From Candidatus Poribacteria bacterium (GTDB lineage Bacteria; Poribacteria; WGA-4E; PCPOR2b), in contig OZ244042.1 of the NCBI GenBank assembly GCA_965215015.1, positions 2,848,001 to 2,912,000 on the forward strand: DNA of 64,000 nt. Direction: 5' to 3'. The notes beneath the pieces are model-generated. The model was not told the DNA's origin. It was given only the letters and a program-made list of their open reading frames with translations, and did no database searches. A program made the translations under genes and the position numbers. This document shows, piece by piece, positions 582-37,585 of the stretch. Numbering within the stretch: the stretch's first letter is position 1; each line of letters starts with the position of its first letter.

Positions 582-1460
582 ATGGTATTTGGTACAGGTA
601 AATATAGATACACAGTCGCAGAAAATTGGGACAAAACGCCCGACGGTTGGAAGTGGGGCTGGATTCCGGCAGTGGCAACCGATTCACAAGATCGGGTCTT
701 TGTTTACTCTCGTAGTGAAAATCCACTGGCGGTTTTCGATCGGGACGGTAATTTCTTGGAGACATGGGGCAGCGGCATTCTCCCTCCCGAAGCGGCGCAC
801 GGCCTCTACATCGATGCTGAAGACAATGTGTATTGCACTGACAATAGCAACCACTGTGTCTTCAAATTCAATCGAAATGGGGAACTCACGATGACATTGG
901 GCACGCCCGGCGAAGCTGCCCCGGCGGATGGTGATCCCTTCAATTCTCCGACCGATCTGGCAATTGCCTCCACCGGCGAGTTGTTCATCTCAGATGGCTA
1001 CGGCAATGCACGCGTCCACAAGTATTCGCCCAATGGCGAACTGCTGCTGTCGTGGGGTGAGCGCGGCACTGGACCTGGGCAATTTGCTTTGTCACATTGC
1101 GTCCGCATAGACAGAGAGGATCGGGTCTGGATCTGCGACCGTTCAAATAACCGCCTCCAAATTTTCGATACAGATGGAAATTACTTGACCGAATGGACTG
1201 ATGTCCCACAACCTAACACAATTTACTTTGATCCCAACGATGAGGTGGTTTATGTCGCTGGATTAGATCATGAGTTCCTCATCTATACGTTAGAGGGCGA
1301 ACTAATGACCCGATGGGGCGGTGCAGAATCGAGTGAAGTACCGGGCGAGTTTCTCGGTGGTGCTCACGGTCTCTGGATGGATTCGTACGGCGACCTCTAC
1401 ATGGGTGAAGTGATGTTGGGAGAGCACGCTCGGATGCAAAAGTTCATCCGTCAAACCTAA
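582..1460 (+). CDS. NHL-repeat beta-propeller protein (peptidyl-alpha-hydroxyglycine amidating lyase-like)
   Basis: Repeated NHL motifs (FNSPTDLAIASTGELFISDGYGNARVHKY; GQFALSHCVRIDREDRVWICDRSNNRLQIFD). GGAGG RBS. Confidence 0.9.
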   Translation: MVFGTGKYRYTVAENWDKTPDGWKWGWIPAVATDSQDRVFVYSRSENPLAVFDRDGNFLETWGSGILPPEAAHGLYIDAEDNVYCTDNSNHCVFKFNRNGELTMTLGTPGEAAPADGDPFNSPTDLAIASTGELFISDGYGNARVHKYSPNGELLLSWGERGTGPGQFALSHCVRIDREDRVWICDRSNNRLQIFDTDGNYLTEWTDVPQPNTIYFDPNDEVVYVAGLDHEFLIYTLEGELMTRWGGAESSEVPGEFLGGAHGLWMDSYGDLYMGEVMLGEHARMQKFIRQT

Positions 1461-1511
1461 AAGGTAACGAGCAATTGTTTGAGCATAGGCGGAATCGAGG
1501 GAGAAACGGCT

Positions 1512-2549
1512 ATGAATACAATGAAGGCAGCGATTTATACTGGCATCGAACAGATAGACCTCCAAGAAGTTGAGAAAAAGCCGCCTGAACCGGGGTATGT
1601 TACGATCGACACCAGGTGTACAGGCATCTGCGGTAGTGATCTCCATAGCTATTTTGGTCACTGGGGTCAATCCAATACCCTCGCTGCAGGTCACGAAACG
1701 TGCGGGATAGTTGTTGAACTTGGGGAAGGTGTTACGACACTCCAACCGGGCGATAAGGTCACTATCGAATGTTTCTCACACTGTAGGAATTGTGTCTACT
1801 GTCGGAAAGGCTACTATAACCACTGTCTGGAACGCCAATGGGTCTCGCACAACACACACGGTGGCTTTTCGGAGTATACTACCGCTCACGCTTCGGGCCT
1901 TTTCAAGCTGTCGGAGAGCATGAGTTTTGAGGAAGGGGCCTTGGTGGAGCCGCTCGCAGTCTCTTACCGTGCTGTCGGACAGGCGCGGGCGACCTATCAA
2001 GATCGCGTCGCAGTTATAGGTGGAGGAACAATCGGACAATACACCTTGGCAGCGGCGGTAGCAGCGGGTGTCAAAGAGACACTCATCACGGTCAAGTATG
2101 ATCAGCAAGCTGAACTTGCAAAGAAACTGGGGGCTGACCATGTGGTGCACATCGGCGAAACCGATCCCACGGAGTATGTGAAGGACATCACCGGTGGGCG
2201 TGGGATGGACGCTGTGATTGAAACCGTTGGTGGTGGGCACAACTTCGACGATGCAATGGCTATGGTCAGAAGCCGTGGGGTCGTTGTCCTTGTCGCAGGA
2301 TATTACGAACCGCTAAAGGTGAACTTGGGACGGATCGTTGGATCGGAGGCGGTTGTTACCGGCTCCAACTGTTACGGTTACACCGGCATGGACACCGACT
2401 TTGAGGCTGCCATCGAACTTATCGCGTCGGGTAGGGTTGATGCGACAGCACTGGTGACCCATCGGTTCCCACTGACGGAGGTTACTGAAGCTTTTAAGAT
2501 TTCTGCCGATAAGCGTTCCGGGGCAATTAAAGTGCACCTGTGCCAGTAA
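1512..2549 (+). CDS. Zinc-dependent alcohol/sugar-alcohol dehydrogenase (MDR family)
   Basis: GICGSDLH and GHETCG catalytic Zn motifs, CxxCxxCx7C structural Zn site, GGGTIG Rossmann motif. Confidence 0.93.
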   Translation: MNTMKAAIYTGIEQIDLQEVEKKPPEPGYVTIDTRCTGICGSDLHSYFGHWGQSNTLAAGHETCGIVVELGEGVTTLQPGDKVTIECFSHCRNCVYCRKGYYNHCLERQWVSHNTHGGFSEYTTAHASGLFKLSESMSFEEGALVEPLAVSYRAVGQARATYQDRVAVIGGGTIGQYTLAAAVAAGVKETLITVKYDQQAELAKKLGADHVVHIGETDPTEYVKDITGGRGMDAVIETVGGGHNFDDAMAMVRSRGVVVLVAGYYEPLKVNLGRIVGSEAVVTGSNCYGYTGMDTDFEAAIELIASGRVDATALVTHRFPLTEVTEAFKISADKRSGAIKVHLCQ

Positions 2550-8847: not shown

Positions 8848-9069
8848 TCACACAATCGCCGCCACCAACGCGCTTTCACTGTAAAGCAACGCACGGGCGA
8901 AAGTGCCCTCGCCACGAAAATTTGGCGCATTCCACTGTCGTGGTGCCCTGTAATATGCCGTTACGAGGCGATCTCCCAGTTTGACCGTGGAAGGATAGCC
9001 CAAGTCATTGTCGCCGAGGTCGTCACAAACAATCAGCCGCCGTCGCTTGGGAGTAAACCAAAATAGGGG
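8848..9069 (-). pseudogene. 3' remnant of a BNR/sialidase-family gene
   Basis: Manual translation ...RRLIVCDDLGDNDLGYPSTVKLGDRLVTAYYRAP...AAIV* matches the DxGYPS last-blade motif. No start codon; in-frame stop upstream at 9070-9072. Confidence 0.6.
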
Positions 9070-9081
9070 TCAACAACAACG

Positions 9082-9858
9082 TCAATTGGGTTGAACGATT
9101 AATCGAGCCAATTCTTTGCCCCGCGAAGACAGCGTTTCATAAAGCGCACGTGGGATCGAGGGACGCAGATCTGGCAAACGGAACCAAGGTGCGAAATATC
9201 CAACGCTGGTCATCGGTCGAATTTCAACCGAATTATTGGCGGTGCCGCCATGCCAGCAGCGCACATCCCGGATGAGTGCCGTTCCGGCTGGGGCACAGAT
9301 AATTGACTGCTTCATACGGTCAGGTTCCTCTTCCATCGTCGGCACTGGCTGACGAGTCCGGTGGGTACCCGGTACAAATCGGATAGCACCGTTGATTTTT
9401 TTGAATTCAACCATCAGGAAATTTACAACGATATATGGTGTCGGTACATCGTGGATTGTCACTAGACCCAAGGGATCCTTAAAAACATCCCTGATATCGG
9501 CGTGCAGGTGTTGTTCTTTCGCGCCGGGGGTAGAGTAATCACCACCGCCGCCGGAACAGATGTAATCGGAACTCCCCCAAATTGCTTCCACTATTGGCAG
9601 AATGGTCGGTAGATCGATAAGCTGAACCCACTCCGGATGATGAAGTTGAGACCCAAAGGAGTAGCGAGCATACCCTCGGTTTGCGTCCTCAAGTGGAATG
9701 TCCCTCATTTGCTGGGCGATAACGCGGGCTGCGCCCGATTGGGCATACGCAAGCTGTTCGGGATTGAGCGCGTCTTTGATGGGGACAAACCCATCTCGTT
9801 GAAAGATAGCAGCTGCTTTTTCAATTTCGGTGGCATCGATAATTTCGACATCAAGCAT
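9082..9858 (-). CDS. Phytanoyl-CoA dioxygenase (PhyH) family Fe/2OG dioxygenase
   Basis: FQRDGF, HLHAD (HxD), FVPGTH and CWHGG motifs. Upstream TTGCAA-N17-TATAAT at 9965-9937. Confidence 0.9.
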   Translation of the reverse strand: MLDVEIIDATEIEKAAAIFQRDGFVPIKDALNPEQLAYAQSGAARVIAQQMRDIPLEDANRGYARYSFGSQLHHPEWVQLIDLPTILPIVEAIWGSSDYICSGGGGDYSTPGAKEQHLHADIRDVFKDPLGLVTIHDVPTPYIVVNFLMVEFKKINGAIRFVPGTHRTRQPVPTMEEEPDRMKQSIICAPAGTALIRDVRCWHGGTANNSVEIRPMTSVGYFAPWFRLPDLRPSIPRALYETLSSRGKELARLIVQPN

Positions 9859-10014
9859 AGCGGGCGAATCCTTTCTCCAAAGCTCTTCACACAACAATAC
9901 CATCTCATCCGACGATTGAAACCCTTGTAGCGGTTGATTATACCTAATCCGATTTTTCGTTGCAAGTTTTTTTGGGAGCTGTTACGTACGAGAAAATGAA
10001 TTCATTAACATATC

Positions 10015-10491
10015 ATGAGTGATTGCTTACTTCGTATCAGTGAAGCGGTGACGGTCAACATCGAGAATATGACTGATAATGCGCTCAGCGTCCAGTCGAG
10101 TAAGACAGACCAGACAGGTGAAGGCGTGGTGCTGTATATCGGAGATCGGACAAGGGAGATGATAAGGCTCTACCGTGATAAGGCGGGTATTACCACTGGG
10201 GCATTATTCCGTCGTATTGTTCGGGGCGATCATATCCAATCCACGAGGTTCACGGTTAATGGGGCGCGCAACGCTATCAAACAATGGGCTTCCGTCGCTG
10301 GTATCGAAGGCTTTATCTCTGGGCACTCGCTTCGTGTCGGCTCTGCTGTCTCGCTTGCTCAGGCGGGGGCGTCTGTTGTTGAGATGCAAGAAGTGGGTCG
10401 GTGGAAAAGCCCACAGATGCCGGCGCACTATGCACGGGTCAAAGAAGCGGAAAAGGGGGCTGTGGCTCGGTATCGGTATAAAAAGGGGTAG
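10015..10491 (+). pseudogene. N-terminally truncated Cre-like tyrosine recombinase (copy A)
   Basis: LLRISE (catalytic Arg), SKTD (Lys), GHSLRVG (HxxR), GRWKS and HYAR (Tyr). The core-binding domain is missing. Confidence 0.85.
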
Positions 10492-10579
10492 ATGGGTATA
10501 TTAAGGAAAAAAAACGCCGTACAGGTGCTTGCATCCCGACTTGTCGGGGGCAAATTAGGGGCTTATTGCGTCTTTTTTG

Positions 10580-10608
10580 TTGACACCGTCTTCAAAATCG
10601 TTTATAAT
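10580..10608 (+). promoter_or_regulatory. Perfect consensus sigma70 promoter
   Basis: TTGACA (10580-85), 17-nt spacer, TATAAT (10603-08). Confidence 0.85.
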
Positions 10609-10613
10609 GGTAT

Positions 10614-10862
10614 ATGATTGGTAGGTTTTTGTCGGCTGCTGTCAGGCTAACAAACCCTGTCAATCGTTTCGTTTATGGGAGCCCCAAGCCTGATACTCGG
10701 AGCTCCCGAAACGATACGAGAGTCAGCCTCGAATCGCTCTTGATTGATTAGGCGTTGGTTCACCTAACAATCGCCAATAGTATAACCCTTTAAGCCATCC
10801 GTTTCTACCTAAAACAAAGGGCTGCGCGATTCGGGATTATCCCCATCTGTAGCCCTTTTTCT
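10614..10862 (+). ncRNA. Putative structured ncRNA or attenuator leader
   Basis: Begins at the expected TSS of the consensus promoter. Successive imperfect hairpins at about 10616-10670, 10666-10718 and 10742-10772, then a GC-stem/U-tract terminator. Confidence 0.55.
10816..10862 (+). terminator. Intrinsic terminator closing the leader RNA
   Basis: aaagggctgc...gtagcccttt stem with an inner ggga/tccc hairpin, followed by a T-tract. Confidence 0.65.
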
Positions 10863-10903
10863 GTTTGCAGAGAGAAACGATGATAACGCGGAAGGAGGTA
10901 AGG

Positions 10904-11332
10904 ATGAATATCCGAAGGTTTAGGATAGCAGTGGCTTCGGTTGTTATTCTCTTACTCATTGGAATTGGTGCGTATGTTGCCTACGATATGAATACGCCTG
11001 TCCAACAGGTAAGAGTTTATGAAGTGCCGGAGCCAGGCCCTCGTGCTGTCCTTGTGGCGGATGTTGCGCGGGGTGCCCCCGTGACAGCTTTATCGAATCA
11101 AGAACCTCAGATGTTAGATGACGACGCTAGTCCCTTGCTCATTGAAGAGTGTTGCCCTGATGATTTGTCGGAGCTTGTTGCACTCGATGACGGAAGAGTG
11201 CCTGACTCTAACCCCGTATCGCCTGAAGTTATAGAAGATGCAAGGCGGCTTAGGGAGTGGCAAGAGGCTTACGCTTTGTATAATGAGAAAATGGAGGCAC
11301 ATCACGCTGAACGCTCCGAGTTGTTAATGTGA
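10904..11332 (+). CDS. Hypothetical signal-anchored exported protein (possibly truncated)
   Basis: Strong AAGGAGGT RBS; basic N-terminus, TM helix, then an acidic region with a CC pair. Confidence 0.7.
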   Translation: MNIRRFRIAVASVVILLLIGIGAYVAYDMNTPVQQVRVYEVPEPGPRAVLVADVARGAPVTALSNQEPQMLDDDASPLLIEECCPDDLSELVALDDGRVPDSNPVSPEVIEDARRLREWQEAYALYNEKMEAHHAERSELLM

Positions 11333-11619
11333 CTGGAAAAACGCGTCCAATGACTAATCAAGAAAAAGTAAATATTGCTGCTTTTGCGGCAGCTGTCGTT
11401 TGGGCAAAACAGGTTGAAAATAATGCACGGAAAAAAGTAAACAGTAAGCAAAGAGACCTCGATAGATGTATCGAGCGAAACACCCGAAACTGTGGTAATG
11501 GATCGCGGTGTGAGATTGCTCATACTCGCAATGTAACTTCTTGTGATTGTGCGGGTAATACATGGAATTACGGTTCCTGCCCCTGCGGTCCTAGTTCTTC
11601 GTCACAAAACAACAACTGA
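11329..11619 (+). CDS. Small protein with a 7-Cys C-terminal domain (may be the 3' part of a longer gene)
   Basis: GTGA overlap with the preceding ORF; C-terminus RCIERNTRNCGNGSRCEIAHTRNVTSCDCAGNTWNYGSCPCG. Confidence 0.55.
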   Translation: MTGKTRPMTNQEKVNIAAFAAAVVWAKQVENNARKKVNSKQRDLDRCIERNTRNCGNGSRCEIAHTRNVTSCDCAGNTWNYGSCPCGPSSSSQNNN

Positions 11620-11630
11620 AAGGAAGAGCT

Positions 11631-11894
11631 TTGGATATTGTTATCGTCGCATTGATAATCTGCGGCTTACTCAGCGGCTGTCTCTGGTTTACTCAGATTC
11701 GCCGCCACCTTAAAGGGCCCATACAATTAGCATTGACCTTTTTTTTAGGCTTAATGTTCGGCGGATTTCTAAAGGGGTCGAATAAATTGGAGATAGTTAT
11801 TTTTAGCACTCTAGTTGTTGTTTGCTTTTTAATTGTTTATCTTAATTTGATAGGTAGAGTTGTTAGGCTATTACGGCGTTTAGTCCGTGCGTAG
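11631..11894 (+). CDS. Small 3-TM membrane protein with a basic tail
   Basis: AAGGAAG RBS, TTG start, three hydrophobic segments, followed by a terminator. Confidence 0.65.
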   Translation: MDIVIVALIICGLLSGCLWFTQIRRHLKGPIQLALTFFLGLMFGGFLKGSNKLEIVIFSTLVVVCFLIVYLNLIGRVVRLLRRLVRA

Positions 11895-11922
11895 CACTTT
11901 TAGATTAGCAAACGCAATTCAG

Positions 11923-11964
11923 AAAGGGGGTATCTTCGGAAGTCCGAGGATACCCCCTTTTTTT
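11923..11964. terminator. Intrinsic terminator between convergent genes
   Basis: aaagggggtatcttcgga-ag-tccgaggatacccccttt followed by a T-tract. Confidence 0.85.
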
Positions 11965-12313
11965 ATGCCTCGTGAGTTCTTAGCTTCGTCAATAGTTTCC
12001 CGATGCGTTCCGTCAACGATGGGCGGGGCGGGGGTAATTGTGCTAACAGTTGGCTGTTCTGGCGGGTCTGTATGGCGAGGAGCTGGGTCAAGCGTTCATT
12101 CTGCTGGGAGAGCTGTTTAATCTGAGTGTCTTTCTCTGAAAGGATCTGTTGTATGTTGTCGTGTATGTTGTCGTTGTTGTTGTCGTTTGTGTCGTATGGG
12201 TCTATCTCATATTGATGTCCGACACGGCGGGCTTTGAGTTTACCCAGATGGATATAATGCCTGACTGTCTCTAGATTGATGCCATGTTTTCGTGCATAGG
12301 ATTCAACGGTCAT
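11963..12313 (-). CDS. Excisionase/MerR-type HTH protein with a C-terminal coiled coil
   Basis: MTVESYARKHGINLETVRHYIHLGKLKARRVG HTH, an Asn/Asp linker, then heptads EKDTQIKQLSQQNERLTQLL. Confidence 0.75.
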   Translation of the reverse strand: MTVESYARKHGINLETVRHYIHLGKLKARRVGHQYEIDPYDTNDNNNDNIHDNIQQILSEKDTQIKQLSQQNERLTQLLAIQTRQNSQLLAQLPPPRPSLTERIGKLLTKLRTHEA

Positions 12314-12416
12314 AGGACCGTCCCTGCCTCTCTTGTTACCCCCCATAGTTAGATGAGGAGTGCTCATAAGTATTGTCTGAATTGCGGCTTTAGCGGAGGA
12401 CACGGATAGGGACAAA

Positions 12417-12439
12417 CGCGCAATGAATTGCGCTACTAC
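12417..12439 (-). repeat. GTAG-type REP palindrome
   Basis: Minus strand reads GTAGTAGCGCAATTCATTGCGCG. Confidence 0.6.
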
Positions 12440-12594
12440 GAACAGGGTGATTTATGTGAGGAGTGCTCAAGTCAGATTACGCGTGGACGCCTGACCGACG
12501 GGTATGAAGATCAGTGGGGCGGTGGGGCAAGTTCGAGTTGAGAGTTTAATAGCAGTTGCGTGTTAGCCAAGCCATAGGCCATAACGGTTGTGGG

Positions 12595-12812
12595 GTTTGC
12601 GGCACACGGAATGTGCCTACTAATTTATGGGCACCCGTCAGTTAGATAGAGATCGCAACGCGGCAATCAATATCCATCGGGTGGGGCAGCTACCCTCTCA
12701 GGAGAGGTCGTCGCTCTCCGATAGAATCGGAGCTCACTTTGTTGATAGAGCAATTCAACATCTTAAAGGACGGATAAGAATCCCCACCCTTTAGGGTGTG
12801 GGAGTATGTCAA
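12595..12812 (+). mobile_element. IS200/IS605 remnant: tnpB 3' stub, omega-RNA region and right end
   Basis: CGVCG and LDRDRNAAINIHRVG (TnpB C-terminal signature), then aagaatccccaccctttagggtgtgggagtatgtcaa. Confidence 0.8.
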
Positions 12813-12920
12813 ATACAGCTTGATATCCTCTCGCTGTTCTAAGAGACTGTAGGATTTACACAGTTGAAGGCTCAAAGCCTTGTCGTTCGGCGATTTATCA
12901 CCCTTGGACGCTGTTGCCAA

Positions 12921-12943
12921 CGCCCGATGAATCGGGCAACTAC
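12921..12943 (-). repeat. GTAG-type REP palindrome
   Basis: Minus strand reads GTAGTTGCCCGATTCATCGGGCG. Confidence 0.6.
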
Positions 12944-13144
12944 AGCGGTGGGGACAGGCACCATCTAAATGGAAGCAATGTACACCATTCCGTAGGAGAG
13001 TTTATTGGGGTCATGTTGATGCCTTTCATTGGTTCAGTATGGACCTCTCCAATGACTAAACGTAAACATTAATCCTTGGGGAGTCTTTTTAAAACAGGTT
13101 CTTAGCGTTTTGCATTTTCTTTTGATATGGGTGAATCTGGTATA

Positions 13145-13545
13145 TCACCGCAGTTTGTCGGCGTATCTAGGTGCCTTCAGTTGCATCTCCGGACGGTGTA
13201 GGTTATAAAGATCGATGGGTTCATAGGGATGTTCCAGCGCAGCGTCTTCGTTGAATTTGACGCCCAATCCCGGACGGTTTGGGATCTCGAGCCAGCCATC
13301 CTTGACGACCATCGGATTTATGCAAACGTCGAAGCGCCACGGTTCAGGCGGAAAGTGCTCCAATGTCAGGAAGTTGGGGACGCACGCGGCGAGTTGAACG
13401 GCAGCAGCGTAGGACACCTCCCCGTTAGGATTGTGCGGAGCGAATGCCGCATAGTGTGAATCTGCGATGGCGGCTATCTTCCGCGCCTCGAGCACTCCGC
13501 CGCAGTGCGACATATCCGGCTGAACAATGTCTGCACCGCAGCACA
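13145..13545 (-). pseudogene. 3' half of a galactonate dehydratase-like (mandelate racemase family) gene
   Basis: ADIVQPDMSHCGGVLEARKIAAIAD...APHNPNG...PNRPGLGV. The N-terminal half is replaced by the phage-like operon. Confidence 0.8.
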
Positions 13546-13570
13546 ACCTTGATTTTGAAAGGAAAACAGC

Positions 13571-13915
13571 ATGATTACGCAACATCAGATTAAGCAAGCC
13601 GCCGCTGCATTCGTGAAAGAAAGCAGTGTGGACGCGCTTGCAGACATTCTCATGATGACGCCCCGATCGGTCAGGCGCTTCGTGAAATCAGACGCATTCC
13701 AAGCCGAACTGGATGCGCTCAATTATGATGGTCCGAGAGATTTCACAGGCCGCAAGCGGGGACGCGCTCGGAAATACCATCATGCCCGCGATTTGTGGGA
13801 AAGCATAAGAGCATCCACGCCACGCCACAAGCAGAGCCAGATTATCAGTCAAGTCATCGGCGTGCATGTCGTCACTGCCAGAGCATGGCTGAAAGAGTGG
13901 AGGGACAACGCATGA
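13571..13915 (+). CDS. Hypothetical protein with two HTH-like motifs
   Basis: GAAAGGA RBS; LADILMMTPRSVRRF and ISQVIGVHVVTARAWLKEW. First gene of the coupled operon. Confidence 0.7.
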   Translation: MITQHQIKQAAAAFVKESSVDALADILMMTPRSVRRFVKSDAFQAELDALNYDGPRDFTGRKRGRARKYHHARDLWESIRASTPRHKQSQIISQVIGVHVVTARAWLKEWRDNA

Positions 13916-14478
13916 GAAACGCCAAGCACATCACGCATGAGATCGCGTATCAGCAGATCCTCGCGGACGGCTGTCTACGACCGAAAGGCCGTGGATTTGG
14001 CAACGACTGGATAGCGGGTGATGATCGATACATCTTCCTTGCCGTGGGCAGCAAGTATAAATCGATTATGCCCGATGATCGGTATTCATTTGAGTTTGAT
14101 GCTCACACGCTGGTTGCACAAGGTGCCACGGTGGGTATTGCTCTCGGCGTGCACTACGATTTTATCATGCACGTTGCAGCCGCTGCCGTTTATGCAATGT
14201 TATTCCTAGAACGCATGTTTGGCATGGCTGAGGGGGTAATCGAAACCAACTACCACGATTTGCTATACGCTGCAACCGATCCCACAGATCAATCAGAAGC
14301 TGTCGAGCAAGTCCGGGAAATATTCCGATCGGATGTGAAGATGCTGCATCAAGCATATCGCACGCGCGGGCCGCGTGCGCTTGAGGTCTTGGAACACGGC
14401 GATGAGGATGTCGAAATCCTTGTCGATTGGAATCTCAGCCTTGACTTGTGCATAAAGCACGGAAAGGAGTCAAAATGA
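13912..14478 (+). CDS. Hypothetical protein, candidate ADP-ribosyltransferase fold (DarT-like)
   Basis: ATGA overlap; motif order HIT...ILADGCL...YIFL...EILV. Confidence 0.6.
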   Translation: MRNAKHITHEIAYQQILADGCLRPKGRGFGNDWIAGDDRYIFLAVGSKYKSIMPDDRYSFEFDAHTLVAQGATVGIALGVHYDFIMHVAAAAVYAMLFLERMFGMAEGVIETNYHDLLYAATDPTDQSEAVEQVREIFRSDVKMLHQAYRTRGPRALEVLEHGDEDVEILVDWNLSLDLCIKHGKESK

Positions 14479-15578
14479 ACAGACTCGACAGAGTTAGACA
14501 AATGCGCTCTCGCGCCCTGAGAGACGATGAAGCACGATCCGAGCTCAGGCAGAACAAGATGATTATCTGGGAGCATCTCAACTACCCAGTGACGCTTGAG
14601 ATAAAGCGTGCAAATTCAGGATGGGAAACCGCCTTTGTCGCTGAAAACCCTGCAGATATCGAGTTTCGGCATTCTGCTTATGCGTTTCCAAGCGACTTTG
14701 AGATGTCGAGATTGATCGAAGCAAACGGCATGATCTACGAGCAAACGAAGGCAGATCTTGACGATTTCAACAGCGTTCATCTGTCAAAAGCACAAAACGA
14801 TCTTGAGCCGCTCAACGCTTTCATCAAAGCAGCACCCGAGCGAGCCGCGGATATTGCTGACGAGCTGATCACCGCTGGCTTACGATCTCAGCATTTTGCG
14901 ATCCGCCCTCGCAGCGAGGTTTTGCTGAGTCATCCGAATCTGCATCACATCGCTTTGCATGAGTTTGATGATTGCGTCGTCTGTCGCATTCACACATCTA
15001 ATGCACCACCAGACGACACCGAGCCCGTAGTGACGATCTGGAAGCCAGCGATCGGATCGGTAATCAACTCACAGCCTCTCAATGCCCGATTTTCGTTTGC
15101 ACCCGTCGAAATCGACAGCGGCATCCAAGCGTTCTTGATTCTCTTGTGCGCTTCGATTGTCCGTGACTTTTGGGTGCTCGAGCAACGAGCACGGCAACAG
15201 GTGTATCAGAAACGCACCGACAAGCGCAGAGAACGCAAAGGCAAGGGTAAAGCACGGAAGATGGTGATCACGAAGGATTATACCTTCATTCCACGCTTTT
15301 CTTACAATCTGAGTGTATATCAGAATACCAAGAAGGTGCAGCATCAAGCCCGTGTGACCCTCAGCCCACATTTGGTATCTGGTCACATCCGTCGATTACC
15401 TGAAGGACATCAGGCAAGCGATGAAGCCACCCAGAACGCCCAAGAGTTTGGTATCCGTTTCAACGATGGCAAAACCTTCGTGAAGCCGCATGAGCGAGGA
15501 GAAATCGAACAACTCCGCAACTATCGGAGTCGCTCAGCGATGTTGCTTCTATTCGGCGATGGAAAGGAGAATCATTAA
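14475..15578 (+). CDS. Phage-type hypothetical protein with a C-terminal HxVxGHxR...VKPHxRG motif
   Basis: AAGGAG RBS and ATGA overlap; basic stretch KRRERKGKGKARK; SPHLVSGHIRRL and TFVKPHERG. Confidence 0.75.
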   Translation: MNRLDRVRQMRSRALRDDEARSELRQNKMIIWEHLNYPVTLEIKRANSGWETAFVAENPADIEFRHSAYAFPSDFEMSRLIEANGMIYEQTKADLDDFNSVHLSKAQNDLEPLNAFIKAAPERAADIADELITAGLRSQHFAIRPRSEVLLSHPNLHHIALHEFDDCVVCRIHTSNAPPDDTEPVVTIWKPAIGSVINSQPLNARFSFAPVEIDSGIQAFLILLCASIVRDFWVLEQRARQQVYQKRTDKRRERKGKGKARKMVITKDYTFIPRFSYNLSVYQNTKKVQHQARVTLSPHLVSGHIRRLPEGHQASDEATQNAQEFGIRFNDGKTFVKPHERGEIEQLRNYRSRSAMLLLFGDGKENH

Positions 15579-16091
15579 ATGTTGAGCGGCAAGAAATTTG
15601 ATAGAGATGAAAGCGAAGGTGGCATCAGCATCATAGAGGGGCTTTTCGTCGCGATAGCATTCTGCGGACTTTACGCGATTATCGTTTATGTGGTCGGCCC
15701 ACTACTTGGGTTTATCGATGCGGTCTGGGATTTTATCGTTGATGATATGGATGATATGCCTGAAAGGTATGCAGGACCCGTTTTCATGGGTTTTCCAGTT
15801 TTTATTAGTCTTTTTAGTGGTGTTTTGGGGGCTGTTTGTTTAATCATCCATGATGAATTGTGCAATAGAGATTCAATCGCAGCTACCATCATAGGGTGGC
15901 TTTGCATCATTCTGACACTCGGCACACTACTTTGGATTATTGACCCATGGCTTGATATTGATCGGGGGGACCTAATGAATATTGTTTTTTTTGGTGTTTG
16001 GTTTTACTTCTGCGGATATTGCGACGGTAGAGAAAGCGAAAACAAACGCATCAAACAACAACTTGATGAAATTCTGAGGAGGAACGCATGA
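15579..16091 (+). CDS. Hypothetical 4-TM membrane protein
   Basis: TAAATG abutment with the upstream gene, AAGGAG RBS, four hydrophobic segments. Confidence 0.7.
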   Translation: MLSGKKFDRDESEGGISIIEGLFVAIAFCGLYAIIVYVVGPLLGFIDAVWDFIVDDMDDMPERYAGPVFMGFPVFISLFSGVLGAVCLIIHDELCNRDSIAATIIGWLCIILTLGTLLWIIDPWLDIDRGDLMNIVFFGVWFYFCGYCDGRESENKRIKQQLDEILRRNA

Positions 16092-16579
16092 GTTTCAAAA
16101 TGACTTCTAACCTTCTGGTTGATAACCAGAAGGTTGAAAGTCTTGTATTCAGCATAATCACCGTTATTCTCATCATAGCAGGTTGTAGCCACGAACATGA
16201 ACTACTGCCACACGAGCATGAGTTACTACCTCATGACCACGAGCATGAGCATAACCACGAGCATCCGTTTCTCCCTGCGGAGATTGTTCGCATTTCAAGT
16301 GGCGTCATTGAGAAGCTATACAAATCCTACCCGTATGAAGGGCAAGTGATTATAGAGTTTTCCCAAGTGCCACGCCATACGCAAGTCAGCGCATGGATGG
16401 ACACAGGTGGGTATGAAGGGTATGAAGTCCGATGGGAACAAAACCATCGAACCGTGACCATTTATTTCCACTCGAGGCATCAACACAAAGAAGTCGGTGG
16501 CTTTATCCAGTGGGAAAGTGGACGCAAACACTTTGACATTCGCATCGATAAACGCATCGATAAGCAGAAGGGGAAATAA
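16088..16579 (+). CDS. Putative lipoprotein with a His-rich N-terminal repeat
   Basis: Hydrophobic stretch ending in IAGC (lipobox-like), then SHEHELLPHEHELLPHDHEHEHNHEHP; ATGA overlap. Confidence 0.7.
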   Translation: MSFKMTSNLLVDNQKVESLVFSIITVILIIAGCSHEHELLPHEHELLPHDHEHEHNHEHPFLPAEIVRISSGVIEKLYKSYPYEGQVIIEFSQVPRHTQVSAWMDTGGYEGYEVRWEQNHRTVTIYFHSRHQHKEVGGFIQWESGRKHFDIRIDKRIDKQKGK

Positions 16580-16644
16580 GAGGATCTACCACATTTGATG
16601 TCCATATTCGCCCCTGGTGCGATTCTTTTGGTGAATATACCCAT

Positions 16645-17331
16645 CTACCCCTTTTTATACCGATACCGAGCCACAGCCCCTTTACTCGCTTCTTTTACCC
16701 GTGCATAATGAGCGGGCATCTGTGGAGATTTCCATCTGCCCGCTTGTTGCATCTCCACAACAGACGCCCCCGCTTGAGATAAAGACACCGCAGCCCCCAC
16801 ACGAAGCGAATGCCCCGAGATAAAGCCATCAATGCCAGCGACAGAAGCCCATTGTTTGATAGCGTAGCGAGCTCCATTGACTGTGAGCCTCGTGGATTGG
16901 ATATGATCACCCCGCACGATACGACGAAATAAAGTCCCTGTGGTTATGTTTGCTTCAGTGCAGTAGTGCCGTATCATCTGCCTTGTCCGATCCCCGATAT
17001 ACAACGCCACACCCTCACCTTGTTGATTCGTCTTACTCGACTGGACGATTAAGGCATTTTCTTGGCTATCCTCAAGGTTGACCGCCACCGCTTCACTGAT
17101 ACGAAGTAAGCAATCACTCATGAGACGGATAAGTGCAGAATCCCGATAGCCCTTGATGCTTTGTTCAGATTCAGCGAACCTGCACACGAAATCGACATCC
17201 GCCCATGACAGACCGTCGACTTGACCGTTGCCCCTGTTCTGAGTATCACGCTTGATAGTGAGCAGCCGCTTATCGGTGGTTGTCCACTTCTGTAGTGAAC
17301 GCATGATGTGCTTGAAATACCACTTGACCAA
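16645..17331 (-). pseudogene. N-terminally truncated Cre-like tyrosine recombinase (copy B, inverted relative to copy A)
   Basis: RDSALIRLMSDCLLRISE, GHSLRVG, GRWKS, HYAR. The last 158 aa are highly similar to copy A. No convincing start or RBS. Confidence 0.85.
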
Positions 17332-17332
17332 G

Positions 17333-17413
17333 GATCTATCACATTCATGTTTTTAACCGCTTGTTAGGGCAGGCTTGTTAGGGGCACCCTAACAAGTCCG
17401 AATGTGATAGATC
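17333..17413. repeat. 14-bp perfect inverted repeat enclosing a TGTTAG/CTAACA palindrome
   Basis: gatctatcacattc (17333-46) and gaatgtgatagatc (17400-13). Confidence 0.8.
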
Positions 17414-17444
17414 TTTGCCTGTGCGGTTCAGAACCAGAAGGTGC

Positions 17445-17552
17445 ATCAGGATTTTGAGGATTAGGGGTTCAAATGAACCTCCTAAATCCTCAAAATCATT
17501 TAATCCTGAGAATCCTGATTCAGACAAGCTTTCATCCTGATTATGATTCAGA
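17445..17552. repeat. AATCCT/AGGATT-unit palindromic intergenic repeat
   Basis: aatcctgagaatcctgattcagaca and aggattttgaggatt units; same family as 37778-38280 and 24690-24732. Confidence 0.75.
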
Positions 17553-17662
17553 AAAAGAACGCAATAGCAAGCGATTTCCACCACTGATTTTCATGCTATT
17601 TTTAGTTGGCGACAACACCGAAATGTAATATACTTATATAAAAAGAGACAGGAGGTGATTGC

Positions 17663-17938
17663 ATTGTTGAAGAAAAAAAGTGGGTAACGACTTCCATCGT
17701 GATTGAAGAAAATCAAATGGACAAAATCACGGAAGCCGCTGCACTCTTTGATGTACCGAAAATCAAAATCATTCGAGAGTGCTTTCGAGCCGAACTGCCA
17801 CGCACATTCAAGCGATATGGGCGAAACGACAAAACGCGTGGACAAAAGAAAGGAAACTCAACAAATGGACTTTGCAGGCTGGAGCCCAAGCCACCTGATA
17901 CTGGTGGTATTCGCCATCGTTGCGTTCATTGGGCATGA
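17663..17938 (+). CDS. Putative small ribbon-helix-helix protein (start uncertain)
   Basis: WVTTSIVIEENQMDKITEAAALFDVPKIKIIRECF has an RHH pattern. AGGAGGT RBS is present, but the TTG after it is out of frame across an A7 tract. Confidence 0.4.
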   Translation: MVEEKKWVTTSIVIEENQMDKITEAAALFDVPKIKIIRECFRAELPRTFKRYGRNDKTRGQKKGNSTNGLCRLEPKPPDTGGIRHRCVHWA

Positions 17939-18215
17939 AGCGATTATGTTCTACCGCATTGGGCAAAACGATAAGAAGATAGAAAAACTGGGCGAGACAT
18001 TCTTTCATGCCCTTGAACGGCTTGAAGATCGGATGGACAAGCGGTTCGTTGAAGTCATCGGCACCATGAATCAGCGATTGGACGAAACGAACAAGCGCAT
18101 TGATGATACCAATCAACGGTTTACTGAGATGAATCAGCGCCTATCAGACATAGAAGCAAGCATCCGACAACTTAACCAGAACCACATCGATCACTTAACA
18201 CAACATGACCCTTGA
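17865..18215 (+). CDS. Small N-terminal TM plus coiled-coil repeat protein
   Basis: GAAAGGA RBS; one TM helix, then heptad repeats MNQRLDE/TNKRIDD/TNQRFTE/MNQRLSD. Confidence 0.75.
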   Translation: MDFAGWSPSHLILVVFAIVAFIGHEAIMFYRIGQNDKKIEKLGETFFHALERLEDRMDKRFVEVIGTMNQRLDETNKRIDDTNQRFTEMNQRLSDIEASIRQLNQNHIDHLTQHDP

Positions 18216-18256
18216 GGATTTACAACCTCCCAAGGCATGATACCTTCGGATAGTTA

Positions 18257-37424: not shown

Positions 37425-37585
37425 GAATCTGTGGATAGAACCCCGTCTTTTAAGACGGGTATACAGATTGGCAAAGGGTATTCAGTCAAACAACGGTTGA
37501 AATTGTCAGATTGTTAGGCTCTTGAATCCATCAGGCTATCAAGTCCCTAACAATCGCAAAATGGGGTATACTTGTTTTGTCTTTA
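37425..37585 (+). mobile_element. IS200/IS605-like left-end remnant
   Basis: Hairpin cccgtctt/aagacggg, the gattgttagg...cctaacaatc stem and aaatggggtatacttgtYttgtcttt. The last two are shared with the element at 3610-3967. Confidence 0.55.

What the first reader, a model, noticed from the sequence alone, without database searches (positions are those of the whole stretch)
10580..10903. Perfect promoter driving a ~250-nt multi-hairpin, terminator-capped RNA immediately downstream of a tyrosine recombinase
Seen: TTGACA-N17-TATAAT lies 90 nt after the recombinase stop. From the predicted +1 come stems gattggtaggtttttgtcggc/gctaacaaaccctgtcaatc, cgtttcgtttatgggagc/gctcccgaaacgatacg and gattgattaggcg/cacctaacaatc, with many G-U pairs, then a single-stranded stretch and an intrinsic terminator 42 nt before the next ATG. 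I do not recognise it as a known riboswitch or RNA family. Inference: either a recombinase-associated ncRNA, or an attenuator gating the downstream exported, Cys-rich and membrane genes, which have no evident promoter of their own. An alternative reading is a leaderless 45-codon ORF from the ATG at 10614. This is the best candidate here for an undescribed system.
Basis: partly seen in the sequence, partly recalled or inferred. Interest (0 to 1): 0.85.

Follow-up and report, generated by a model that had tools for sequence, protein, structure and literature searches.

The report
Conserved leader RNA heading exported-protein cassettes
The promoter-plus-hairpins stretch is one copy of an undescribed, structured leader RNA that sits in front of secreted and membrane protein genes in a group of sponge-symbiont bacteria, and it probably controls them by stopping transcription early rather than serving the neighbouring recombinase.

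Summary
There is a perfect TTGACA-N17-TATAAT promoter, three locally stable hairpins, and a strong terminator 42 nt before the ATG.

It is not a one-off. Window 10669-10867 is one of about 10 copies in this genome. A covariance model finds it in 17 of 19 other species of the genus and in a few related genera (Candidatus Poribacteria). No Rfam family matches.

Covariation supports a 12-bp hairpin P1. It also supports a long-range pairing of a 10-nt segment (10728-10737) with the terminator loop (10826-10835).

The element ends 27-40 nt before the start codon of mostly exported or membrane proteins. In orthologous loci, homology runs through the leader and stops at the start codon, so the leader is a conserved head on swapped cassettes.

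Best reading: a cis-acting transcription attenuator (riboswitch-like or protein-dependent) with an unknown signal.

The recombinase here is a truncated Cre-like gene. It sits with the leader and cassette inside a genome-specific insertion. The family lies next to leader copies more often than I would expect by chance (own estimate). But 26 of 27 leader loci checked in other genomes have no recombinase upstream, so it is not an obligate partner.

The 45-codon ORF is not conserved. No expression data were available.

The parts
10015..10491 (+). C-terminal fragment (158 aa) of a Cre-like tyrosine recombinase. It is a neighbour of the RNA, not part of it.
   Evidence: Pfam Phage_integrase 5.9e-12. 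Matches residues 172-333 of the intact 333-aa paralogue. The intact paralogue's only PDB sequence hits are Cre and the Cre-derived Tre recombinase, best E 1.4e-6.
10580..10608 (+). Sigma-70-type promoter TTGACA-N17-TATAAT. The predicted start is about 10614-10616 (inferred from the spacing).
   Evidence: 12 of 12 match. TTGAC lies within 75 nt upstream of the element in 25 of 34 family loci, mostly preceded by an A-tract.
10616..10666 (+).
   Evidence: -19.2 kcal/mol, z -3.3. It is present only in copies whose TTGACA lies 51-65 nt (89 nt here) upstream of the core. The sequence varies but stays self-complementary by eye.
10677..10707 (+). P1 hairpin, GGGAGCCCCAAG / CTCGGAGCTCCC with a 7-nt loop. 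This is the start of the conserved core.
   Evidence: 11 of 12 pairs show changes on both sides across 36 sequences.
10708..10720 (+). Region 1 (J1/2 plus the P2 5' strand, GAAACGATACGAG). It is the candidate sequestering partner of seg2.
   Evidence: Pairing with seg2 is 78% of cells, but the columns barely vary. Covariation score reached by 4 of 500 shuffles; 2 of 11 pairs with double changes.
10728..10737 (+). seg2 (CTCGAATCGC), the segment that pairs with the terminator loop.
   Evidence: 94.2% of cells paired, 4 of 10 pairs with double changes, 0 of 500 shuffles as paired, slid controls 13-49%. This helix was not part of the model that made the alignment.
10742..10772 (+).
   Evidence: 5 of 10 pairs with double changes, but the alignment is gappy and only 69% of cells pair. 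The same palindrome type occurs elsewhere in the genome.
10773..10815 (+). Conserved mostly unpaired stretch (AATAGTATAACCCTTT..GCCATC) and the small hairpin P3 (10801-10815).
   Evidence: Nearly invariant columns in A1 and A3. P3 is 77.8% paired with 3 of 5 pairs double-changed.
10816..10866 (+). Intrinsic terminator: stem 10816-10825 with 10849-10858, loop including GCGATTCGGG (10826-10835), U tract 10856-10866.
   Evidence: -23.6 kcal/mol, z -4.6. 97.2% of cells paired, 3 of 10 pairs double-changed.
10874..10906 (+). Conserved post-terminator segment GAAACGATG.., Shine-Dalgarno GGAAGGAGG (10890-10898) and start codon ATG (10904).
   Evidence: The segment is complementary to 10794-10805: 84% of cells paired, modest covariation.
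10904..11962 (+). The controlled operon: ORFs 10904-11332 (N-terminal membrane anchor), 11329-11619 (Cys-rich), 11631-11894 (hydrophobic). It ends in a hairpin plus T-run at about 11926-11962.
   Evidence: ORFs. No Pfam family. End hairpin read.

Best explanation
Window 10580-10903 is a promoter plus a structured 5' leader RNA. The conserved core of about 190 nt spans 10669-10867. This copy also carries an extra 5' hairpin, P0.

The leader belongs to a multi-copy family that heads operons for exported and membrane proteins in one Poribacteria genus and a few related genera. It most likely acts in cis as a transcription attenuator, as follows.

1. RNA polymerase starts at about 10615 and transcribes P1.
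2. It then transcribes a 10-nt segment, seg2 (10728-10737). seg2 can pair backwards with the strand just 5' of it (10708-10720), which sequesters it.
3. Alternatively, seg2 can pair forwards with the loop and top of the terminator hairpin (10826-10835).
4. The forward pairing should hinder or remodel the terminator and allow read-through into the operon 27-40 nt downstream. Otherwise the strong terminator stops a roughly 250-nt RNA.
5. An unidentified signal decides between the two. It could be a small molecule or an RNA-binding protein acting on P1 and the conserved unpaired stretches.

Shown: the promoter, conservation, P1, the seg2-loop pairing, the terminator, and the position before exported-protein genes.

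Inferred: that the pairings are mutually exclusive, that a signal exists, and that the RNA is made at all.

The recombinase is a travelling neighbour, not a component.
For: **Family**
- The core is repeated in the own genome. BLAST gives 10 matches. The CM gives 10 sense-strand copies at E<=1.2e-13, of which 7 are full length.
- CM R1 finds it in 25 of 151 related genomes including G000. Among the others: genus g1 17 of 19, g11 4 of 10, g5 1 of 4, g14 1 of 60, plus a weak match in g15 (1 of 2, terminator part only).
- A phylum-wide draw gives f1 18 of 25, f3 4 of 10, f2 1 of 100, other families 0 of 15.
- Rfam has no match.

**Structure, on 36 aligned copies**
- 86.1% of cells paired, 26 of 47 pairs with changes on both sides, 0 of 500 shuffles reach this, slid controls 24-52%.
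- The seg2 x terminator-loop helix was not in the model. It is 94.2% paired, with 4 of 10 pairs double-changed (reached by 6 of 500 shuffles).
- seg2 is also complementary to the strand 5' of it (78% paired). This gives the three-element layout of classical attenuators.

**Position**
- TTGAC lies at a fixed distance upstream in 25 of 34 loci.
- An SD-preceded start codon lies 27-40 nt after the element in 18 of the 27 loci where my criterion found an ORF.
- 18 of those 27 first ORFs have a clear N-terminal hydrophobic segment. Others show lipoprotein or Tat signals by eye.

**Constraint beyond duplication**
- In orthologous loci of three species (L023, L026, L027), 83-89% DNA identity runs from the upstream gene through the leader and stops 33-40 nt after it, at the start codon. 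L022/L029 and L019/L041 behave alike.
Against: - No transcript evidence. No RNA run holding the stretch was listed, so promoter use, termination and read-through are all untested.
- Whether the seg2-loop helix and the terminator stem exclude each other is unresolved. The terminator loop is 13 nt in 12 of 32 copies, where I argue from pseudoknot geometry that both cannot form fully. It is 21-25 nt in 20 of 32 copies, where a pseudoknot could coexist with the stem.
- If they are exclusive, the terminator fold is the more stable one in 27 of 32 copies, by up to 24 kcal/mol. Read-through would then need kinetic or ligand help.
- The sequestering hairpin and a second candidate antiterminator (CCCUUU with AAAGGG) show no covariation beyond shuffles, or barely any.
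- Copies are paralogues and relatives. They are not independent, and shuffle counts overstate significance.
- Alignment A2 was fitted to P1, Pvar, P3 and the terminator, which biases their pair counts.
- No ligand or protein can be proposed: the controlled proteins have no Pfam family and no Atlas hit.
- High sequence identity over unpaired stretches could partly reflect gene conversion between copies.
Confidence: 0.55

Rival explanations
1. A constitutive structural 5' UTR module. The pseudoknotted leader always folds one way. It would serve as a stabiliser, an insulator or a leaky terminator that sets a fixed low expression level for the cassettes, with no sensing step.
For: - The seg2-loop pairing could coexist with the terminator stem in the 20 of 32 copies with 21-25-nt loops.
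- No alternative pairing other than seg2-loop has covariation support.
- The element behaves as a portable head joined to unrelated cassettes.
Against: - seg2 has two conserved complementary partners.
- The 13-nt-loop copies cannot hold both helices in full (geometry argument; loop lengths).
- Long, nearly invariant unpaired stretches are more typical of a binding site than of a passive structure.
Confidence: 0.15
2. An independent trans-acting small RNA of about 190-250 nt. It would end at the terminator and act on other transcripts, for example on the terminator loops of the copies that lack the 5' half. The downstream operon would be expressed only by read-through.
For: - The unit has its own strong promoter and a strong terminator.
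- The same 10-nt complementarity is shared by all copies, so any seg2 could pair with any loop.
- Copies without P1 and seg2 keep the loop sequence.
Against: - The distance to an SD and start codon is fixed, and there is no other evident promoter for the operon.
- The element is always in the sense orientation, directly upstream of a gene.
- About 10 near-redundant sRNA genes per genome would be unusual.
Confidence: 0.1
3. Primarily a DNA-level recombination module. The conserved leader is the shared arm at which cassettes are exchanged. This could be by homologous recombination between copies, or by the Cre-like recombinases acting at the palindromic Pvar hairpin, in an integron-like or shufflon-like way. 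The RNA structure would be secondary.
For: - Homology between orthologous loci breaks at the 3' end of the leader.
- L024 and L028 share the promoter, leader and gene, but not the upstream flank.
- 5'-truncated copies begin at model positions 103-115 in 8 of 11 cases, just after Pvar, and one begins with Pvar itself.
- Recombinase genes lie within about 0.1-3 kb of leader copies in G000 (4 copies) and in G017 (2), G012, G015, G019 and G018 (coordinates).
- The window's unit lies in an insertion that other species lack.
Against: - Compensatory changes in P1 and in the seg2-loop helix point to selection on single-strand folding.
- 26 of 27 leader loci examined in other genomes have no recombinase upstream.
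- Pvar is missing from several full copies. Its loop length varies from 4 to about 10 nt, unlike a fixed recombinase spacer.
- The palindrome is also part of a separate dispersed repeat.
- No recombination junction was seen (contigs only).

This reading can be true in addition to the main one.
Confidence: 0.1
4. A recombinase-guiding or recombinase-bound RNA, analogous to the bridge RNA of IS110 or the omega RNA of TnpB, encoded just downstream of its enzyme.
For: The element sits immediately 3' of the recombinase gene in 4 copies in G000 and 1 in G019.
Against: - Most copies have no recombinase nearby. In G017 and G012 the gene is divergent and the leader lacks P1 and seg2.
- The window's enzyme is truncated.
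- Tyrosine recombinases of the Cre type are not known to use guide RNAs (general knowledge, not tested).
- I saw no variable loops that match element ends.
Confidence: 0.03
5. A short coding sequence or leader peptide. Either the 45-codon ORF from 10614, or a frame starting at the RUG that opens P1.
For: - The ORF 10614-10751 exists.
- 35 of 36 copies have GTG or ATG at the start of P1, and 7 copies share a 29-codon frame.
Against: - The 45-codon ORF starts in the optional P0 hairpin and is in a different frame from the P1 RUG.
- The P1 frame is open for only 5-11 codons in 15 of 36 copies, and its length ranges from 5 to 63.
- No frame is consistently open.
- The substitutions are pair-preserving.
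- There is no SD, and the predicted start lies about 7 nt before the RUG in most copies.
Confidence: 0.03

Closest known systems
Terminator/antiterminator leaders: transcriptional riboswitches and protein-dependent attenuators such as the trp-leader type 1:2 / 2:3 / 3:4 layout (general knowledge)
   Same: - A promoter-proximal structured 5' UTR ending in an intrinsic terminator just before the SD.
- A middle segment with two alternative conserved partners.
- Conserved unpaired stretches.
- Several copies per genome in front of functionally related genes.
   Different: - No Rfam family matches.
- The forward partner of the switch segment is the loop and top of the terminator hairpin, not its 5' arm.
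- No ligand, protein or leader peptide is identified.
- Sequence identity between copies is unusually high, and the promoter is part of the conserved unit.
ZTP (pfl) riboswitch, as a mechanism: a long-range pseudoknot competes with terminator formation. I saw only the search listing and abstract of bioRxiv 10.1101/521930; the rest is recalled.
   Same: A long-range pairing joins an upstream segment to a segment at the terminator, across a variable linker. It could gate termination co-transcriptionally.
   Different: - No sequence or structure match to the Rfam ZTP model at E<=10.
- Different helices.
- The downstream partner lies inside the terminator loop.
Integron-type or recombinase-associated cassette arrays, such as the tyrosine-recombinase-linked immunity-gene arrays of Bacteroidales
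   Same: - A conserved intergenic element heads variable cassettes.
- Tyrosine recombinase genes are often adjacent.
- Tandem runs of the element 2-3.6 kb apart occur in some genomes (coordinates).
   Different: - Each cassette carries its own promoter and leader.
- The element is at the 5' end of the cassette and is transcribed.
- The recombinase resembles Cre, not tested against IntI.
- Most copies have no recombinase.
- No attC-like R/L box structure was found.
ctRNA_p42d (RF00489)
   Same: A GC-rich hairpin followed by UUUUUCU..UUUGC at 10814-10868 aligns to it.
   Different: 17.8 bits against a gathering score of 50, E 0.55. Only the generic terminator part matches, and there is no plasmid context.

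Membership tests
Any Rfam 15 family | Score at or above the family's gathering threshold | tested here: not met
   0 hits in the 64-kb window. The best sub-threshold hit is ctRNA_p42d at 17.8 bits against 50. 0 hits at E<=1 in 10 homologous loci.
Intrinsic (Rho-independent) terminator | GC-rich stem directly followed by a U tract | tested here: met
   A 10-bp stem, 10816-10825 with 10849-10858, then TTTTTCTGTTT. It is conserved, with 97.2% of cells paired. Termination itself was not tested.
Cis-regulatory leader / riboswitch-like attenuator | Lies between a promoter and the start codon, at a constant short distance, in the sense orientation | tested here: met
   TTGAC upstream in 25 of 34 loci. 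Start codon 27-40 nt after the element in 18 of 27 loci with an ORF by my criterion.
Cis-regulatory leader / riboswitch-like attenuator | Conserved secondary structure supported by compensatory changes | tested here: met
   26 of 47 pairs with double changes, 0 of 500 shuffles. For the seg2-loop helix.
Cis-regulatory leader / riboswitch-like attenuator | Mutually exclusive terminator and antiterminator folds | tested here: inconclusive
   Two loop classes, 13 nt and 21-25 nt, and the energies favour the terminator in 27 of 32 copies. The alternative helices have little or no covariation.
Cis-regulatory leader / riboswitch-like attenuator | Binding of a ligand or protein that changes the fold or the expression | not testable with these tools
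   This needs in-line or SHAPE probing, termination assays or reporters.
Integron (IntI plus attC cassettes) | attC sites with paired R''/L'' and L'/R' boxes at the 3' ends of promoterless cassettes, next to an IntI integrase | tested here: not met
   The element is at the 5' end and carries a promoter. The Pvar palindrome has 9-14-nt arms and no second box. The recombinase's PDB sequence hits are all Cre or Cre-derived Tre. The IntI-specific insertion was not examined.
Recombinase or transposase guide RNAs (IS110 bridge RNA, TnpB omega RNA) | The RNA is encoded at the end of the element with its enzyme, with loops or a guide matching the target or donor | tested here: not met
   The enzyme is a tyrosine recombinase. 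No recombinase in 26 of 27 loci of other genomes. I saw no variable guide-like loops in A2.
Protein-coding small ORF | A reading frame kept open across homologues | tested here: not met
   The frame from the P1 RUG is open for 5-63 codons, and for 11 or fewer in 15 of 36 copies. No frame is consistently open.

The most novel reading that the evidence does not exclude
The leader is the RNA-gated 'expression head' of a cassette-exchange system of sponge symbionts.

- A portable promoter plus switch RNA is joined to hypervariable exported-protein cassettes.
- Each cassette carries the matching terminator-loop 'lock', and seg2 in the head is the 'key'.
- Cre-like recombinases, or recombination between leaders, move cassettes or heads at the palindromic hairpin between the two halves.

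This would be a new kind of integron-like system in which compatibility and expression are set at the RNA level.
Probability: 0.1. Interest if true: 0.85.

Novelty: new variant of a known kind. Interest (0 to 1): 0.62.

Why it matters
- Poribacteria are uncultured sponge symbionts for which I found no described regulatory RNA. Searches: Poribacteria with riboswitch gave 1 irrelevant paper. Poribacteria with tyrosine recombinase gave 0. Of Poribacteria, non-coding RNA and terminator, only one unrelated review held all three terms among the 12 papers listed.
- This motif would define a regulon of up to 14 operons per genome for orphan secreted and membrane proteins. These are the class of genes most likely to face the host.
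- If a ligand or protein is found, it would point to the signal that these symbionts sense.
- The terminator-loop pairing is an unusual expression platform.
- The conserved-head, swapped-cassette pattern and the recurrent Cre-like neighbours suggest a way in which exported-protein repertoires are diversified.
- The motif is well enough defined (covariance model, 36 aligned copies, about 100 matches) to be submitted as a new RNA family and tested in vitro without culturing the organism.

Tried and rejected
**Expression data**
- The look-up of sequencing runs listed no RNA holder.
- Read laying on 4 runs returned only short-read contigs, which break at the repeated parts (10021-10042, 10473-10485, 10804-10830). 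The joints have short sides of 21-57 nt, at depths far above the local depth. I drew nothing from them.

**Other tools**

**Structure**
- RNAalifold on the mixed full and partial copies predicted only the terminator.
- A mutual-information scan with APC gave mostly subfamily signals and no new helix.
- An apparent link between columns 71 and 175 turned out to be a subfamily difference.
- The candidate antiterminator CCCUUU:AAAGGG and the 4-bp P2 have no covariation beyond shuffles.
- Pairing of 10794-10805 with the post-terminator segment, extended to an anti-SD, is 78.5% paired with modest covariation (8 and 23 of 500 shuffles). I kept it only as a possibility.

**Function of the controlled proteins**
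- Pfam gives nothing for 17 of the 20 neighbour proteins scanned. The hits are the two recombinase queries, a sub-threshold DUF4643 match, a Tat-signal GMC oxidoreductase, a winged-helix protein, and two sub-threshold matches on the L030 protein.
- The ESM Atlas gave no usable hit.

**Mobile-element libraries**
- No similar DNA in the plasmid or phage collections.

**Other ideas dropped**
- An invertible promoter: the only inverted repeat near the promoter (10507-10517 with 10568-10578) lies wholly upstream of it and looks like the recombinase gene's terminator.
- A TnpB remnant at 12428-12800: this rests on a recalled C-terminal motif only. Pfam finds nothing.
Full report
**Observation**

- TTGACA lies at 10580-10585 and TATAAT at 10603-10608, with a 17-nt spacer. 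This is the only 12 of 12 promoter-like site in 9000-13000. It begins 89 nt after the stop codon of ORF 10015-10491.
- The three stems fold on their own better than nearly all shuffles. 10614-10668 gives -19.2 kcal/mol, 10666-10722 gives -23.6, and 10740-10775 gives -10.7. The terminator 10812-10868 also gives -23.6.
- The whole 248-nt stretch has z = -4.24.
- The start codon with a GGAAGGAGG Shine-Dalgarno is at 10904.
- The recombinase is a fragment. Its 158 aa match residues 172-333 of an intact 333-aa paralogue elsewhere in the genome. That paralogue's only PDB sequence relatives are Cre and its derivative Tre.

**It is a family**

- BLAST of 10560-10905 against the window's own 5.94-Mb genome gave 10 matches, covering mainly 10673-10880.
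- An HMM and then a covariance model (R1) give 10 sense-strand copies at E<=1.2e-13. Seven are full length, three lack the 5' half, and there are two further remnants.
- R1 finds the element in 25 of 151 related genomes, G000 included. It is in 17 of 19 other species of the genus, at 1-14 matches each. It is also in 4 of 10 of genus g11, 1 of 4 of g5 and 1 of 60 of g14, with a weak terminator-only match in g15.
- A phylum-wide draw gave f1 18 of 25, f3 4 of 10, f2 1 of 100 and the other families 0 of 15.
- Record titles of related loci name Candidatus Poribacteria.
- Rfam 15 has no match at gathering score. The only hit at E<=10 is a 17.8-bit terminator-like match to ctRNA_p42d. There is nothing at E<=1 in ten homologous loci.
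- The plasmid and phage collections hold nothing similar.
- Three literature searches on Poribacteria with riboswitch, tyrosine recombinase, and non-coding RNA plus terminator found nothing relevant.

**Anatomy**

In most copies an A-tract plus TGTTGACA lies so that transcription should start about 5-8 nt before the core (inferred from spacing). TTGAC is within 75 nt upstream in 25 of 34 loci.

Copies whose -35 lies 51-65 nt upstream (89 nt in the window) carry an extra, variable hairpin, P0.

The core, in window coordinates, runs as follows.
- P1: 10677-10688 with 10696-10707.
- A conserved joining strand.
- seg2: 10728-10737.
- An optional palindromic hairpin, Pvar: 10742-10772.
- A highly conserved, mostly unpaired stretch.
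- A small hairpin, P3: 10801-10815.
- The terminator: 10816-10866.
- A conserved GAAACGAUGG segment, the SD and the start codon.

Pair counts on 36 copies aligned to the model (A2):
- 86.1% of cells pair, and 26 of 47 pairs have changes on both sides. No shuffle in 500 reaches this. Slid controls give 24-52%.
- P1 has double changes in 11 of 12 pairs.
- seg2 pairs with the 5' part of the terminator loop (10826-10835). This helix was not in the model, so the alignment is not fitted to it. It gives 94.2% paired, 4 of 10 pairs with double changes (6 of 500 shuffles), and slid controls of 13-49%.

Caveats: the copies are relatives and paralogues, so the shuffle counts are not probabilities. The other helices were in the model.

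**How it may work**

seg2 is also complementary to the strand just 5' of it. That pairing is 78% of cells, but the columns hardly vary, so support is weak. The result is a three-element layout: region 1, seg2, and the terminator loop.

Terminator loops fall into two classes, 13 nt in 12 of 32 copies and 21-25 nt in 20 of 32. By the usual geometry of H-type pseudoknots (my reasoning, not a computation), a 10-bp loop helix and the closing stem cannot both form with only 3 nt left over. In the long-loop class they might coexist.

If they exclude each other, the terminator fold is the more stable one in 27 of 32 copies. Read-through would then need a kinetic advantage or a bound factor.

A further pairing joins 10794-10805 with the post-terminator segment 10874-10884 and could mask the translation start. 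It is 84% paired with modest covariation. Two other candidate helices have no support.

I therefore commit to a cis-acting attenuator with an unknown signal. The switching step is marked as inferred.

**What it controls**

- With a simple SD-plus-start criterion, 27 of 34 loci gave a first ORF. In 18 of those 27 it starts 27-40 nt after the element. Also 18 of 27 have a clear N-terminal hydrophobic segment. Several more show lipoprotein or Tat signals by eye.
- The commonest arrangement is a small secreted, often Cys-rich protein (MFxTKGRLKV...) followed by a 330-450-aa membrane-anchored protein.
- None has a Pfam family apart from a Tat-signal GMC oxidoreductase and a winged-helix protein, the only matches above their curated cut-offs. 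The Atlas gave nothing.
- The window's operon is 10904-11332, 11329-11619 and 11631-11894. It ends in a hairpin plus T-run at about 11926-11962.

**A conserved head on swapped cassettes**

- In three species that share the same upstream gene (L023, L026, L027), DNA identity of 83-89% runs through that gene and the leader. It stops 33-40 nt after the leader, at the start codon.
- L022/L029 stop 14 nt after the leader, L019/L041 38 nt after, and L018/L040 116 nt after.
- L024 and L028 share promoter, leader and gene, but homology begins only 49 nt before the leader.
- So the promoter-leader unit is kept while the genes behind it, or the flank before it, are exchanged.

**The recombinase**

- The Cre-like family has 20 matches in at least 11 places in this genome, many of them broken.
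- Four copies lie directly upstream of a leader on the same strand (window, L002, L005, L007). One lies directly upstream of a leaderless membrane-protein gene (L054).
- In other genomes, comparing coordinates shows family members within about 0.1-3 kb of a leader copy in G017 (twice, divergent), G012 (divergent), G015, G019 (same arrangement as here) and G018. The divergent cases carry a different 5' module, without P1 and seg2.
- That is far more adjacency than a few genes of each kind scattered in 6 Mb would give (my estimate).
- Even so, only 1 of 27 leader loci fetched from other genomes has a recombinase remnant upstream. The enzyme is a frequent fellow traveller, not a required partner.

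**Synteny**

- The PhyH gene that ends at window 9903 is followed directly by the homologue of window 18224 in the closest species (G003).
- In four other species it is followed, about 60 nt later, by the homologue of window 13134.
- So window 9904-13133, at least, is an insertion here. It holds the recombinase fragment, leader, cassette and a helix-turn-helix-like ORF.

**Truncated copies**

Truncated leader copies begin at model positions 103-115 in 8 of 11 cases, just 3' of Pvar. This keeps a recombination role for that palindrome alive. However, the same palindrome type is a dispersed repeat in its own right.

**Coding rivals**

- The 45-codon ORF begins in the optional P0 and is in a different frame from the RUG that opens P1.
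- The P1 frame is open for only 5-11 codons in 15 of 36 copies and ranges up to 63.

**Verdict**

This is a genuine, undescribed, covariation-supported leader RNA family of Poribacteria. It is most likely an attenuator for exported-protein cassettes. Expression, the switching step and the signal are all untested. No RNA run was available, and the contig lay-out gave nothing usable.

Noticed in passing
window 9904-18223: About 8.3 kb is absent from the orthologous locus of the closest species (G003), where PhyH joins directly to the homologue of 18224. Four other species have the homologue of 13134-13539 about 60 nt after PhyH. The segment looks like a mosaic island with recombinase fragments at both ends.
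   Followed up: partly
window 16648-17331 (-): A second copy of the same Cre-like recombinase family, 5'-truncated (residues 106-333, 93% identical to the intact paralogue). It is in inverted orientation relative to the fragment at 10015-10491.
   Followed up: partly
window 17333-17415; also L005 about 1415-1480: A MITE-like unit of about 75-80 bp. It has terminal inverted repeats GGATCTATCACATTC / GAATGTGATAGATC around a CTTGTTAGGG..CCCTAACAAG palindrome. It sits at the broken end of one recombinase gene and just after the stop codon of another.
   Followed up: partly
whole genome G000; window 3663, 10763, 11860, 17361-17395, 37511-37553: A dispersed 25-nt palindrome, G(A/C)TTGTTAGG-N5-CCTAACAA(T/G)C. 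The 8-mer occurs 9 times in the window against 1.5 expected. A pattern allowing 1 mismatch per arm gave 37 starts (some overlapping) in the genome. Some lie near recombinase genes and two lie inside leaders.
   Followed up: partly
window 12428-12945: Short ORF pieces whose C-terminal motif I recalled as TnpB-like; Pfam finds nothing. The region has very high contig depth in public runs, as a repeated insertion sequence would.
   Followed up: partly
L003 about 1440-1500 (-) and L004 about 1430-1545 (-); L002 403-1391: Apparent 1-nt frameshifts inside the signal-peptide region of the small secreted ORFs of two leader copies, and in one recombinase copy. These could be real pseudogenes or long-read homopolymer errors.
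   Followed up: no
L049, L050, L051, L052: A variant leader type. It has its own promoter-like site (TTTACA..TATATC), a different 5' hairpin (GGAAUGCGAAUGCAUUCC), and only the 3' half of the motif. In three cases it is divergent from an intact recombinase gene.
   Followed up: partly
G017:C2 4785375-4791506 and G009:C1 3622642-3629602: Tandem runs of 3-4 full leader copies spaced 2-3.6 kb apart, which suggests arrays of leader-headed cassettes. Seen as coordinates only.
   Followed up: no
window 13145-13597 (-): A 150-aa ORF that is only the C-terminal domain of an enolase-superfamily (MR_MLE_C) protein. This gene neighbours PhyH in other species.
   Followed up: no
L019 1985-2875 (-), L030 201-1346 (-), L014 and L016 flanks: Transposase-like ORFs lie next to, or between the genes of, leader-headed operons in other genomes. 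I judged these from the first residues only and did not scan them.
   Followed up: no
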